Source: Octopus vulgaris (Eukaryota). Taken from it: a DNA stretch of 64,000 nucleotides. The position numbers and the translations under genes are program-made. Below, piece by piece: positions 53,826 to 59,551 of this stretch (positions are counted from its first letter, which is position 1; each line of letters begins with the position of its first letter). Under the pieces are notes generated by a model. That model was not told where the DNA came from, ran no database searches, and worked only from the letters and a program-made list of their open reading frames with translations. Location: the NCBI GenBank assembly GCA_951406725.2, contig OX597822.1, positions 61,070,001 through 61,134,000 on the forward strand, given 5' to 3'.

Positions 53826-55919
53826 TACACTGGTCCCACTCCTGAACTATATGGTCGTTATATTGACGACATTATCGGTGCCACCTCACTCTCCCGCGAA
53901 CATCTAGATTCCTTCCTCTCTTTCGTCCAATCTTTCCATCCAGCCCTCCACTTCACTTCCACTATCTCCAACACCTCTGTCTCCTTCCTCGACATTTCGG
54001 TTAGCATTCTTCACTCCACTCTTACCACCTCCATTCACTACAAACACACAGACTCACACTCATACCTCAACTTCTCTTCCTCCCACCCAGAACACACCAA
54101 GCTTTCCATCCCCTATTCCCAATTCCTCCGTCTACGTAGGCTCTGTAGTGACGACCATGACTTTGAGACTCAGTCTCAACGTATGGCTCACCACTTCACC
54201 CTACGTGGATACCCCCTCACCACTATCCACACCGCCCTTGCCAGAGCACGGTCCGTGGACCGTGTATCTGCTCTCTCTCCCCGAACCCGCCCTGTAGTCT
54301 CCCGCCTCCCTTTTCCCCTCACTTACCACCCCACGACCCTACGTCTCCAACGCACCATTCTTCGAGCTTTCCGTCATCTCCAGTCCGACCCGTCCACTTC
54401 ACACCTCTTCCCTAACCGACCCCTCCCCTCTTTCAAACGAGCCCACAACCTTCGAGACCTTTTGGTCCATAGCTCCTTCCCTGACCCTACCTCCCAACCC
54501 GGCTCGTTCCCCTGCTCCCGCCCACGTTGCCGCACTTGCCCTTACCTCTCCAACACCACCCGCCTCACTAGCACCCACCATCGACCCTATCCCATCATCC
54601 ACTCCTTCACCTGCACCTCCAGCAATATTATCTATTGCATCTCTTGCTCTCTCTGCAATTCCTTGTACATCGGACAAACGGGACGCCGCTTGGCTGACCG
54701 GTTCGCGGAACACCTTCGTGACATCCACCTTGCGAACGACACACCGGTCTCACGCCATTTCCGCTCCACCGGTCACTCCTTGCAACACCTATCTGTGTTC
54801 GGTTTGTCCTTACACAGAGGCCATCCGGATTCCCGTTTGCGCCGTGAACAGGAATTAATCTTCTCTCTTCGCTCTTATACGCCATTTGGTCTCAACTCTC
54901 CCCCCTCCTCATCTAACCCCCCTCTCCCCCTCCTCACCTATCCTTTCTCCCCCGACCCCTACCTCTTCAGTCCTTCATCCTTTCACCCCTACTCCCCTTC
55001 CCTTCTTCCCTCTTTCTCCCTCCCTCTTCCCCTTCCCTCTGCTCCCTCACTCCCTCTCTCCCCTTCTCTCTCCCCCTCCCCTATTTCCTCCTTCATCCCC
55101 CTCCTCCCCTTCCTTCTCCCCCTTCCTTCTCCCCCCTCTTCTTCCCCTCCCCTTCTCCCCCCTTCTCTCCCCCCTCTCCCCCCTCTCCCCCTCCCCCTCT
55201 CCCCCCTCTTCTCCCCCTCCCCCTCTTCTCCTCACTACACCACATGACTTTACACATCACATCACATATGATGTGCCATACTAATACACACACCAACTAA
55301 TACATACTAATACGTACTAATACATACTAGTACATACTAATACTTACACCAACCCTATACATACACACGTCCAGACCCCGCATACGCACTTATACTCTCT
55401 CTCACACACACACACACCTATACATACCAATACGTACTAATACATACTAATACATACTAATACATACACCAACCCCATACATACGCACGTCCAGGCCAAT
55501 CCTACGCACTAATACTCTCTCATACACACACACACACACACACACCCCCTTATACATACTAATACATACACCAACCCTATACATACACACATCCAGACCC
55601 CTCCCACGCACTATTAGCTGGTCCCTCAACCCTTTTATCAACCCTATTATCTCCCCTTATTTCGCTCTGGCGTCTCATGTTTGATCTTTGACCTCTGGCC
55701 GAAATCAGATCGCCATGTTGATTCGTTAGCTACTGCACGCATTTTTTTTCTCTCCTTCTTTCTGTGTTTTTCTCTCTCTGTGTATCTTTCTGTTGAAGAG
55801 CGTAGGCTCGAAACGTTAAAGACTTGTTTTATTTATATTTCCTGAGCGCCATACTAATACAATTGTTCGTTTGTTTTCCACCTGCCTTCGTCTTTTGTTT
55901 ATTTTCATAAAGCTTCCCG

Positions 55920-55990: not shown

Positions 55991-56194
55991 TATATACATG
56001 CATATAGATCGCTAGCCTCTACACTTTCTTTATTTTCTCTCCTTGTTTCTTTCTGTGTTCCTTTCTGTGGAAGAGCGTAGGCTCGAAATGTTAAAGACTT
56101 TTTTTACTTCCCGAGCGTAATACTAATACATCTGTTTGTTGTCTACACCACCCGTCTTCGTCTTTTTTGCGTGTGAATTCTCCCCATATATATT

Positions 56195-56400: not shown

Positions 56401-57095
56401 TCTTTATTTCTTCTTTTGCTGGTGTCTCAAAATTAGGTTAAATCAGTGTTTCTCAAAGGGGAGGCCTATGGGACGGTCGAACAAGTTGTTTAGAGAACAA
56501 GAAGTTGAAAACTGAGGAAAGAAGTTGAAAATAGTTTTGCCCCATGACACTCCATGGACCCTAAGTTGTGTATCCACCTACTTAAATCACACGCCCATTG
56601 TATGTATTGTCCTAGATTATCCCTAAAAGGACGGTTTGCTGAAGGCTGGAATGTCTTTGATGATACGTCTGCAGTATCAGGGTTTATTTGACAACAACAT
56701 TATGGTCAATTTCTATATTGACACCCGCACGATTTTCACAAAGAAAAAGAATTTGATTTTTTTGCGTGGTATCAAGTACCCTGAGCTCCTAATTAAGTTA
56801 CTTAAGGTGATCCTGGTAACTGATGGTTCTGGGATCTTGTTTGTAACTTATGGTGAGCCATGGTACAACCAACAACATGGTAAAAAATCCCTGCCATTAA
56901 TTTGGTGTGGATGGGTAATATTAAATAATTCAATCACAACATATATTTAAATTAAACACACAAAAAATTGAAATATTATCATCACTTACATGGAAAAATT
57001 GAAATATTATCTTTCAGTATTTTATAAGGTAAAATCTTAAATTATTAACTGACACATTATTAATTATCTTATAGCAGCAATGCCTGGAAAAATGG

Positions 57096-57822
57096 ATTAC
57101 ATGGTAAAATGCGAGCATGAAAAGTCATATTCTTAAAATTATAAACCTGGAAAAGTACAGGGCAAGTTATTACACCTGTAAAAGTATAGGACTAGTTATT
57201 ACTTCTAGTAAAGTAAAGAATAAGAGTCAAGACTATTGAAAAGGTTGCAAGACGCAATGAAAATTTTAGGAAAATAAAATAAAGAAATAAGTGGAAATTT
57301 TACCGGTGAGTGTGTTACATTATAAGGCGCAAAAAGAAAATGACTCTCCCCAGACACAACAGAATATGCTTCAACACACGAACTCATATAAAGAACCTTG
57401 CAAACCAAATCCAAAAACGAAAAGAATAAGACACTTTTTTCTTAAAATATTGCAGCTAAAATTAAAATTTGAATATTAAAAATTATTTTATTATAGTTTA
57501 CAAATAACACTATACTTATTTAAGTAGAATTTGGCTAATTTACTAACTTAAATACAGAAAAAAGTGACTAATTAGACAAACTTACACGTTACCTGAACAA
57601 TTTTATACAATAAATTTAAAAGATGAGAACTGTAAAGAATGATTAATTAGAAGAGCTGGCATTCTTTGCTGCAATATTTTAAGTAAAAAGTTTCTTATTC
57701 TTTACTTTACTAGAAGTAATAGCTTATCCTATGCTTTTACATGCGTAATAATTTGTCCTGTACATTTCCAGGTTTATAATTTTAAGAATATGACTTTTCA
57801 CGCTCACATTTTTCCATGTAAT
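57096..57822. mobile_element. Foldback element with about 165-bp inverted arms, left arm interrupted by a 195-bp insertion
   Basis: 57096-57225 plus 57421-57460 mirror 57662-57822. Confidence 0.8.
57233..57269 (+). ncRNA. Minimal hammerhead-like motif (U3-A8) inside the 195-bp insertion
   Basis: CTA-TTGAAAA-G-GTTGC(AAGAC)GCAAT-GAAA-AT-T-T-TAG. Confidence 0.5.
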
Positions 57823-59551
57823 TAATATATATTTATATACGACGAGTTTCTTTCAGTTTTCGTCTACCAAATCCACTCACAAGGCTTTGGTCGGCCCGAG
57901 GCTCTTGCCCAATGTGCCACGCAGTGTAACTGAACTCGGAACCATGTGTTTGGGAAGCAAGCTTCTTACCACACAGCCACTCCTGCACCTATTCATTTCT
58001 TCTTTTACTTGTGTCAATTATTAGACCATGGTCATGCAGGGGCACCGCTTTAAAGAGCTTTTTAGTCGATAAAATCGCCCCCAGTTCTGGGACTTACTCT
58101 ATCGATTTCTTTTTTCCGACCTACCAAACTACAGATACATGACCAAATCTACATCGCTGCCAAGCGCTAAGAAATACGCACGCACGCACGCAACACGTAC
58201 ACTTACTTGCAAGGCATTGGTCATAAAGCCAAACTAGAAGACACCTGTCCAGAGTGCCGCATACTGGGATTGAACGCGAAACACCTGTGACTATGAACGA
58301 ACGTCCTAACTACAGCTCTCATGTCTGCTTGTGTGTGTGTATGTGTCTTTGTATTTAAAGAATTCTTTAAAAAGAGATTAGATTTTGTTTAGACAGGTGT
58401 CTAAAGAGACAATCGCGGTTGAAAGCACTTACACAAAAATTTTCTTCATATCATCCATCAGGTCTGTGTTAATCTGTTTTTAAACAGATAATTTTTGTTT
58501 GATAATTTTAAATTAAAAAAAACAACAACAGATTTCTGAGATATCATAAGCGCACTAAGTACTTTCTTCCAAATCTTCAACAATATGCATACGTACGTGT
58601 GCAAGTGTGTGCGTATGTGCGCGTACTATGTCTGTATACAGTACGTCGATATATAGTTAAATTTCGACGGCTTGAACAAAACAGATTGAGAGTATTTTGT
58701 CTGGATAACTGATTTTTCTGATAACCGAGTTTTGACTATATCAGTATCATTATCAGTATCATCTCTATCGCCACCGCATCAGAAGTCTCATCATCTCCAT
58801 CATTATCATTTCTATCATCAGATGTTTATCCCCCACTTTCCATCGACATTAGAGCTGTAGCAAGTCTGAACAATAAGTTGTGAACGTTTGTGTTATTACC
58901 AGAGTATTTAATCATATAATTGGGTGTGCCAAAGGAGTAGACGCTATGTGTATGTTTGACCTGCTAAAAATAGCAGTGAAATATACTCCACTATCTTGTC
59001 TTATCTTCTAACATTTCATTCGCTTCTAGGACGCATTATAGGAATATTAAATCGACCCCAGTACTTCAGTGATACTTTAATTTGTTAACCTTGCGAAAGA
59101 AGAAGGGTAAAGCTGACCTCAGTACGATTTGAACTTAGAATAATAAAAGTAGAAGTACTGAATCTGAATATAAAACGGAATAGTCATGAGTGGAACATTT
59201 ACGTTCGCAGATCTATTCAACTGTGACTGACAACAATAACTACATACATCATCTGAGAGTGAAATGAACCTAACCAACTGTGAAATGAAAAACTGGGTTA
59301 CGAAATTAGGCAGACGTTTGTGAAGCGGCGGATGCGTGCGCACGCAAACACACACACATACATAGATCATGGGCTTTGGCACAGTTTTCGTCTACTGAAT
59401 CCACTCACAAAGCATTGGTCAACCCTGGACCATAGTAGAAGACACTCGCCAAAGGTGTCTTGCAATGGAACCAAACCCGGTATGACATCGTTGCGTACAG
59501 TCATGCCTACGTCTGTCTGACTGTCTCTCTATCTTTCTCGCTATATATATA

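What the first reader, a model, noticed from the sequence alone, without database searches (positions are those of the whole stretch)
57215..57431. 195-bp mobile insertion with an 11-bp TSD carrying a hammerhead-like motif (retrozyme-like mini element)
Seen: 57226-57420 is flanked by exact AAAGAATAAGA repeats (57215-57225, 57421-57431). The mirror arm of the host foldback element (about 57662-57710) shows the uninterrupted empty site, so this is a true insertion. Its first 45 nt fold as a minimal type I hammerhead: stem I CTA/TAG, core UUGAAAA, stem II GTTGC/GCAAT, GAAA, palindromic AATT stem III. It has no tRNA head, TIRs or poly(A). Known: non-LTR retrozymes and Penelope pLTR derivatives are short non-coding hammerhead-bearing retroelements, some producing circular RNAs. 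Inference: a non-autonomous, ribozyme-bearing family mobilised in trans by Penelope-like elements.
Basis: partly seen in the sequence, partly recalled or inferred. Interest (0 to 1): 0.75.

Follow-up and report, generated by a model that had tools for sequence, protein, structure and literature searches.

The report
Solo end-piece of a Penelope retrotransposon
This 195-base insertion is a lone copy of the end-piece of a common protein-coding Penelope-type jumping gene, carrying a known kind of predicted self-cutting RNA motif; such short copies tend to begin at the same base, likely because the copying enzyme runs off the start of its RNA template.

Summary
The insertion, 11-bp duplication and empty site are real. 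It is not a separate mini-retrozyme. The same 195 bp forms both pseudo-LTRs (pLTRs) of full-length RT + GIY-YIG Penelope-like elements in this genome, and its last 81 bases are the first 27 codons of their ORF. Copies show the known Penelope marks: two 3' ends, inverted 5' arms, duplications mostly of 7-15 bp, and no head-to-tail arrays in 199 loci. The hammerhead is the published U3-A8 minimal type. It sits at the same place in two sister families, with 6 of 11 pairs changed on both sides and none broken. Cleavage is untested, and copies do not pile up at the cut site. One less ordinary feature: 0 of 115 arms from 70 tail-bearing loci pass 24 bases upstream of position 1, and 23 start within five bases. 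Run-off to the transcript's 5' end is likely but unproven. This scan noted the same fixed start in other genomes. New member of a known kind.

The parts
57215..57225 (+). Left copy of the 11-bp target-site duplication; its last 3 bases also match the family's 5' start (microhomology)
57226..57420 (+). Solo pLTR + tail of a Penelope-like element (true ends possibly 57223-57422)
57233..57269 (+). Minimal type I hammerhead motif: stem I 57233-35/57267-69; core 57236-42 (U3-A8); extra G 57243; stem II 57244-48/57254-58 (first pair G.U in this copy, G-C in most); GAAA 57259-62; palindromic 15.2/16.2; predicted cut 57266|57267
   Evidence: PMC4209133
57340..57420 (+). First 27 codons of the element's ORF (ATG at 57340); in full-length copies the ORF runs on to RT and GIY-YIG
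57360..57368 (+). Second, tail-less 3' terminus of the family, where inverted arms and some direct copies end (element positions about 134-149, mostly 139-143)
57368..57422 (+). Tail (about 55 bp) between the two termini
   Evidence: PMC11167929, PMC8557442
57421..57431 (+). Right copy of the 11-bp target-site duplication
57096..57225 (.). Left arm of the host fold-back repeat (interrupted; continues at 57432-57459)
57665..57822 (.). Right (mirror) arm of the host fold-back repeat with the empty site

Best explanation
The 195 bp is a solo pseudo-LTR plus tail of an endonuclease-bearing Penelope-like retrotransposon family, likely inserted by that family's own RT/GIY-YIG protein and likely a dead end. 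Shown: the same sequence stands at both ends of full-length elements, carries the first 27 codons of the ORF, and has the family's duplications, two 3' ends and inverted arms. Inferred by analogy with the anole element PAc: the protein nicks AT-rich DNA and starts reverse transcription inside the ORF start, which fixes the 3' end. Inferred here: when it starts at the site near the 5' end of a transcript, it copies only about 200 bases and runs off the RNA's 5' end, probably the transcription start, which fixes the 5' end and gives thousands of short copies. The hammerhead is a passenger inherited with the pLTR. Its fold is conserved between families, it is predicted to be weak as a monomer, and its cleavage is probably not needed for these insertions.
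For: Parent: longer copies carry RT motifs (PTDKSG, SMDVISLY, YVDD), a C-X4-C-X2-C linker and GIY-YIG (Pfam PF01541, 28.1 bits, cut-off 22.6) upstream of the 195 bp. In 5 of 30 loci found with ORF sequence, the 195 bp runs straight into shared coding DNA. Three of the six regions extended show pLTR-ORF-pLTR at 4.3-4.5 kb spacing: L124, L126, L127. Penelope marks: duplications of 10 bp or more in 27 of 52 short copies against 0.9 in shuffled flank pairs (max 5; four of the 27 are (TA)n sites); inverted arms in 39 of 56 loci. Copy number: 1,802 exact 35-base motif matches and 2,379 exact tail 28-mers, controls 0. Fixed 5' end: among 70 tail-bearing loci, 23 of 115 arms start at -2..+2 and none passes -24; about 19 of the 26 forward arms that reach +10 would pass -25 at the downstream truncation rate, P about 1e-15. 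Among 40 motif-selected loci, 19 start at -3..+2. A third family has 14 of 45 arms starting 110-116 bases before its ATG, the same distance. Hammerhead: 11 pairs compared in three families, 6 changed on both sides, 0 broken; the 3-8 pair is U-A, C-G and G-C (stem II). Short and long copies interleave on the tree.
Against: The transcription start was not seen: only contig runs were served, and they cannot show RNA ends. The boundary is not absolute: 7 of 40 motif-selected arms extend to -58 or further. In the youngest sister family 40 of 98 arms pass its pile-up at -195..-203, where only 11 start. The sample was picked by an exact 28-mer from this copy's subtype and from one contig. The tree rests on 195 columns and is poorly resolved; one large part is mostly short copies, which a short master copy would also give. 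No intact ORF of this family was seen in the loci examined. Rfam finds no hammerhead here at E up to 10, the whole 217-nt strand folds no better than shuffles (z 0.06), and its best fold pairs stem II's 5' strand with the tail instead. The need for RNA downstream of the RT start is taken from a different clade (PMC11167929).
Confidence: 0.8

Rival explanations
1. The short copies are a non-autonomous mini-element: a short or internally deleted master is transcribed on its own and copied in trans by the Penelope protein.
For: Short copies greatly outnumber long ones: 0 of 70 tail-bearing loci are long. They share a 5' end. One part of the tree is mostly short copies. pLTRs alone can direct integration in trans (PMC3846280, passages).
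Against: Long copies sit inside the short-rich part of the tree (L005, L010, L012, L013, L021, L022). No diagnostic base among 17 variable sites is confined to short copies. The same short, fixed-start copies occur in two sister families with long open ORFs. In PAc the template needs ORF sequence beyond the RT start (PMC11167929), which solo copies lack.
Confidence: 0.2
2. Ordinary 5' truncation of long cDNAs, with a strong RT stop or template-switch point just upstream of the hammerhead (structure, or the 6-base complementarity between the 5' start and the bases just after the ATG).
For: 5' ends between +11 and +144 are spread evenly, as for ordinary truncation. The boundary lies 13-22 bases before the hammerhead core in two families. 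The 6-base complementarity is visible in the sequence.
Against: Long copies read through the same sequence. In the sister family the pile-up is about 65 bases before the core. A near-total stop is needed (0 of 26 against about 19 expected).
Confidence: 0.2
3. A non-LTR retrozyme: tandem units cut by the hammerhead, circularised and re-inserted.
For: Size (about 200 bp), low G+C, a type I hammerhead and long duplications fit the description in PMC7229834 (passages). Retrozymes derive from pLTRs and have monomeric offspring (bioRxiv 10.64898/2026.07.22.740005, first part and passages).
Against: 0 contiguous head-to-tail arrays in 199 loci; 7 same-strand pairs, the closest to a dimer having 88 unrelated bases between copies. 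The motif is minimal, not canonical. Copy ends are not circularly permuted and do not pile up at the cut site. The unit includes the ORF start.
Confidence: 0.04
4. Solo pLTRs left by recombination between the two pLTRs of full-length insertions, as with solo LTRs.
For: This would keep the duplication. Solo pLTRs by recombination or deletion are suggested in PMC3846280 (passages).
Against: None of the five ORF-linked 5' pLTRs examined starts at the common boundary. Most short copies have ragged internal 5' ends and inverted arms. Full-length-type sequence is far rarer (194 first-look candidates).
Confidence: 0.04

Closest known systems
Endonuclease-positive Penelope-like elements with pLTR, tail and inverted 5'-truncated arm (PMC8557442 passages; Adineta Pen2a, PMC3846280 passages); Neptune/Nematis type
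   Same: RT then C-terminal GIY-YIG; CX2-5CxxC linker; cysteine pair inside the nuclease motif; pLTR containing the first codons; optional tail; head-to-head arms; about 10-bp duplications; (TA)n targets; N-rich stretch in the ORF.
   Different: The tail is about 55 bp rather than 30-40. Short solo copies dominate and share a 5' start. The clade was not placed by a tree.
[quoted passage not shown]
   Same: U3-A8 core variant, extra base between 9 and 10.1, G10.1-C11.1 in most copies, palindromic 15.2-16.2, short stem I; most motifs there also occur as single, probably truncated copies.
   Different: Stem I is 3 bp and stem II 5 bp, shorter than in the Schistosoma motifs (4-5 and 7-8 bp). This copy has G.U at 10.1-11.1 (T in 10 of the first 100 exact matches).
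Poseidon_Ac (PAc) of the green anole (Frangieh et al. 2024, PMC11167929, parts 1-2 of 4 read)
   Same: Two fixed 3' ends inside the ORF start that bound the tail; AT-rich targets; no sign that the cut RNA is the inserted template.
   Different: PAc is Penelope/Poseidon clade and its hammerhead overlaps the start codon; here it lies about 70 bases before the ATG. In the parts I read, that paper does not describe a fixed 5' end of short copies.
Metazoan non-LTR retrozymes (PMC7229834 passages; bioRxiv 10.64898/2026.07.22.740005 first part and passages)
   Same: Small, AT-rich, type I hammerhead, long duplications, Penelope link.
   Different: Retrozymes are tandem, non-coding units, mostly with canonical hammerheads, that yield circles. 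This is dispersed, holds the ORF start and is the pLTR itself.

Membership tests
EN+ Penelope-like element (terminal fragment) | Sequence is the direct terminal repeat of an RT + GIY-YIG ORF | tested here: met
   pLTR-ORF-pLTR in L124, L126, L127; GIY-YIG above Pfam cut-off; RT motifs by eye and 34% identity to P0004, which carries PF00078. Pfam itself gave no RT hit on the fragments.
EN+ Penelope-like element (terminal fragment) | Optional tail made of the ORF start; two 3' termini | tested here: met
   same two ends in both sister families
EN+ Penelope-like element (terminal fragment) | Inverted 5'-truncated arm and target-site duplication around the whole unit | tested here: met
   39 of 56 loci with an inverted arm; 27 of 52 with a duplication of 10 bp or more. 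The window copy has the duplication but no inverted arm.
Neptune or Nematis clade | CX2-5CxxC linker before the nuclease | tested here: met
   C-X4-C-X2-C in L034, L127 and others; definition from PMC8557442
Neptune or Nematis clade | Placement in an RT tree with reference elements | not tested
   No named reference proteins were at hand
Minimal type I hammerhead | Core words, 3-8 pair, stems I and II, palindromic 15.2-16.2, covariation | tested here: met
   only three families compared, and the sister motifs were located by eye
Minimal type I hammerhead | Self-cleavage | not testable with these tools
   No pile-up of copy ends at the cut site in three families; minimal motifs cleave poorly in vitro (PMC4209133)
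Non-LTR retrozyme | Head-to-tail tandem units with a hammerhead in each | tested here: not met
   0 contiguous arrays in 199 loci; first 100 of 1,802 motif matches are dispersed or head-to-head. Not a whole-genome tandem scan.
Non-LTR retrozyme | Non-coding unit separate from an autonomous element | tested here: not met
Non-LTR retrozyme | Expressed as a circular RNA | not testable with these tools
   Only contigs were served

The most novel reading that the evidence does not exclude
Solo pLTRs are integrated 'strong-stop' cDNAs. Penelope RT starts inside the ORF head near the 5' end of its mRNA and runs off the transcription start; long copies would arise only when that cDNA jumps to the 3' pLTR or the template is tandem or circular. 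Genomic copy ends would then map both the RT start sites and the transcription start of any Penelope family, and explain why the tail is made of the ORF start.
Probability: 0.45. Interest if true: 0.55.

Novelty: new member of a known kind. Interest (0 to 1): 0.27.

Why it matters
As an element it is ordinary: one of thousands of end-pieces of a Penelope-like family, with a hammerhead type published in 2014. Two things have some value. The three related families give a natural series at the 3-8 core pair (U-A, C-G, G-C) for testing what these weak ribozymes do. The fixed 5' start of short copies gives a testable handle on how Penelope elements copy themselves, which is still poorly understood, and a young sister family with intact ORFs makes the test feasible.

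Tried and rejected
Rfam scan: no hammerhead family at E up to 10. Whole-element folding: not better than shuffles on either strand. Pile-up of copy ends at the hammerhead cut site: 4 of the first 30 sister loci looked suggestive, but 0 of 40 further loci added any; none in the focal family or the third family. Rejected. Idea that a weak hammerhead causes short copies: the third family has a 7-bp stem I and is also mostly short. Rejected. Intron from about 57306 to 57353: it would remove the ATG that is conserved in three families and leave a frame that stops early; contigs showed no such joint. Dropped. Expression: no RNA holder listed; contigs cannot show starts; the second laying returned nothing, so RNA ends remain open. 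PDB sequence search: no match. DNA search for the sister tail returned nothing because its words are too common; an exact pattern was used instead. L129/L130 held ORF pieces but no pLTR. Rows left out: in each 70-locus sample, three of the first 73 listed places were skipped because they lay in loci already held; the focal three have arms starting at -16, -25 and +52, and the sister three belong to full-length elements. L377 and L378 of the third family share flanks and are not independent.

Full report
Numbering: element position 1 is window 57226, position 0 is 57225, and so on.

1. Observation. The 195 bp and the exact 11-bp repeats are as described. The host's mirror arm lacks the insert, and so do 9 of 11 other host copies; 2 do not cover the site. 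It is a true insertion. The motif has a 3-bp stem I, a U3-A8 core, one extra G, a 5-bp stem II, GAAA and a palindromic 15.2/16.2 pair. My descriptor, written after seeing the motif, hits it once in 64 kb and in 0 of 20,000 shuffles. Rfam does not find it, and the whole strand folds no better than shuffles. The isolated 47 nt folds stems I and II as its best structure.

2. Family. The first search gave 1,140 candidates; the 40 scored each gave a near-full-length match at 94-100% identity. Exact patterns give 1,802 motif copies and 2,379 tail copies, so the family has several thousand copies. Forward copies end near position 197. Many have an inverted arm at the 5' side whose outer end is near 139-143 (39 of 56 loci). 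Duplications flank the whole unit: 27 of 52 short copies have 10 bp or more, against 0.9 in shuffled flank pairs; four of the 27 are (TA)n sites.

3. Parent. Walking upstream from a longer copy led through a CA-rich 3' region to a GIY-YIG domain (28.1 bits, cut-off 22.6), a C-X4-C-X2-C linker and RT motifs. Pfam gave no RT hit on the broken fragments; the nearest proteins are labelled RT by a source or by PF00078. In 5 of 30 loci found with ORF sequence, the 195 bp continues into shared coding DNA. The frame starts at 57340 and matches the N-terminus of an intact 1,311-aa sister ORF. L124, L126 and L127 have the repeat at both ends of the ORF, 4.3-4.5 kb apart. This is the pLTR, tail and inverted-arm layout described in PMC8557442 and PMC3846280 (passages). 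The linker points to Neptune or Nematis; no tree was built. P0001, labelled Octopus vulgaris by its source, matches this genome at 100%, so the host is probably an octopus.

4. Hammerhead. PMC4209133 (parts 1-2 of 4) describes minimal hammerheads in pLTRs with U3-A8, an extra base before stem II and a palindromic 15.2-16.2, mostly as single truncated copies, with low activity even as dimers. U3-A8 is a known natural covariation (PMC3088659, passages). Within the family the motif is not clearly more conserved than its neighbours, and position 11.1 is T in 26 of 82 arms of a sample biased to this copy but in 10 of the first 100 exact matches. Two related families carry a hammerhead before their ATG too. 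Across the three, 6 of 11 pairs change on both sides and none is broken; for stem II, 30 of 30 cells pair. That is good evidence for a selected fold, from only three families. Cleavage is untested. Copy ends do not pile up at the cut site; an early hint in the sister family failed to replicate. This agrees with PAc, where uncut RNA is the inserted template (PMC11167929, parts 1-2 of 4). The window holds only one copy, so no dimer partner lies in cis nearby.

5. Not a retrozyme. Retrozymes are tandem, non-coding units that give circles (PMC7229834 passages; bioRxiv 10.64898/2026.07.22.740005, first part and passages). In 199 loci there were 7 same-strand pairs and no contiguous array. Short and long copies interleave on a weakly resolved tree, and none of 17 variable sites separates them.

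6. Fixed 5' end. In 70 tail-bearing loci (70 of the first 73 listed on one contig), 23 of 115 arms start at -2..+2 and none passes -24. At the truncation rate seen downstream, about 19 of 26 forward arms should pass -25. In 40 motif-selected loci, 19 start at -3..+2, 8 at +4..+9, 6 at -8..-34 and 7 at -58 or beyond. The third family has 14 of 45 arms at 110-116 bases before the ATG and 5 beyond. The sister family has 11 of 98 at 195-203 bases before the ATG, but 40 beyond. In a probable DNA run, summed contig depth over the pLTR is hundreds of times that over the ORF head, and loose ends gather at position -2; this is not a copy number.

7. Mechanism. Shown: identity with the parent's pLTR, two 3' ends, duplications, inverted arms, the 5' pile-up, covariation. 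Taken from PAc: cleavage of AT-rich DNA and internal RT start. Inferred: RT that starts at the site near the transcript's 5' end runs off after about 200 bases, and the product integrates as a solo pLTR that lacks the downstream ORF sequence needed for another round. I put identity at about 0.95 and the run-off step at about 0.55. The main rivals are a short master copied in trans and a strong RT stop.

8. Novelty. The element class, solo copies and the U3-A8 minimal hammerhead are in print. I saw no account of a fixed 5' start in the listings or in the passages read; most subscription papers and all supplements were not seen. Unchecked notes of this scan report the same fixed start in other genomes; I had reached that reading before looking. 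Verdict: new member of a known kind, interest 0.27.

Noticed in passing
L131-L160 (e.g. L136): A young sister Penelope family (about 99% identical copies, open frames up to 1,311-1,312 aa with an N-rich stretch, 2,065 exact tail matches) whose hammerhead has C at core position 9 in place of A.
   Followed up: partly
L161, L162, L165, L371-L400: A third family (2,174 exact tail matches) with a natural G3-C8 core pair and a 7-bp stem I. A search for G3-C8 gave one unrelated-looking listing, not read.
   Followed up: partly
window 55759-55834 and 56034-56109: Two direct copies, 275 bp apart, of another repeat with a decayed C3-G8 minimal hammerhead; related copies in L135 and L143. Probably a further Penelope pLTR family.
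   Followed up: no
window 56901-57822: The host fold-back repeat (867 first-look candidates) is not a simple two-arm element: in 6 of 11 other copies homology runs at least 180 bp left of the left arm, and the right end abuts TA-rich DNA. Type not determined.
   Followed up: partly
window 57243-57251 with about 57397-57406: In the best fold of the whole element the 5' strand of hammerhead stem II pairs with the tail, which would block the ribozyme fold.
   Followed up: no
window 57306-57316 with 57373-57383: A GU-rich word before the ATG pairs with an AC-rich word between the two 3' termini in this and the sister family; the third family has similar words. Many 5' truncations fall 14-30 bases before the ATG in the sister family. 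It may be the RT recognition stem.
   Followed up: partly
L136:1-10: Just downstream of the sister family's 5' pile-up lies a word resembling a YY1 site (resemblance recalled, not tested), which would fit a transcription start.
   Followed up: no
window 57854-57986 and five other places: Another dispersed repeat borders the host element on the right and recurs in the window at 26, 8133, 10652, 15381, 31676 and 59382.
   Followed up: no
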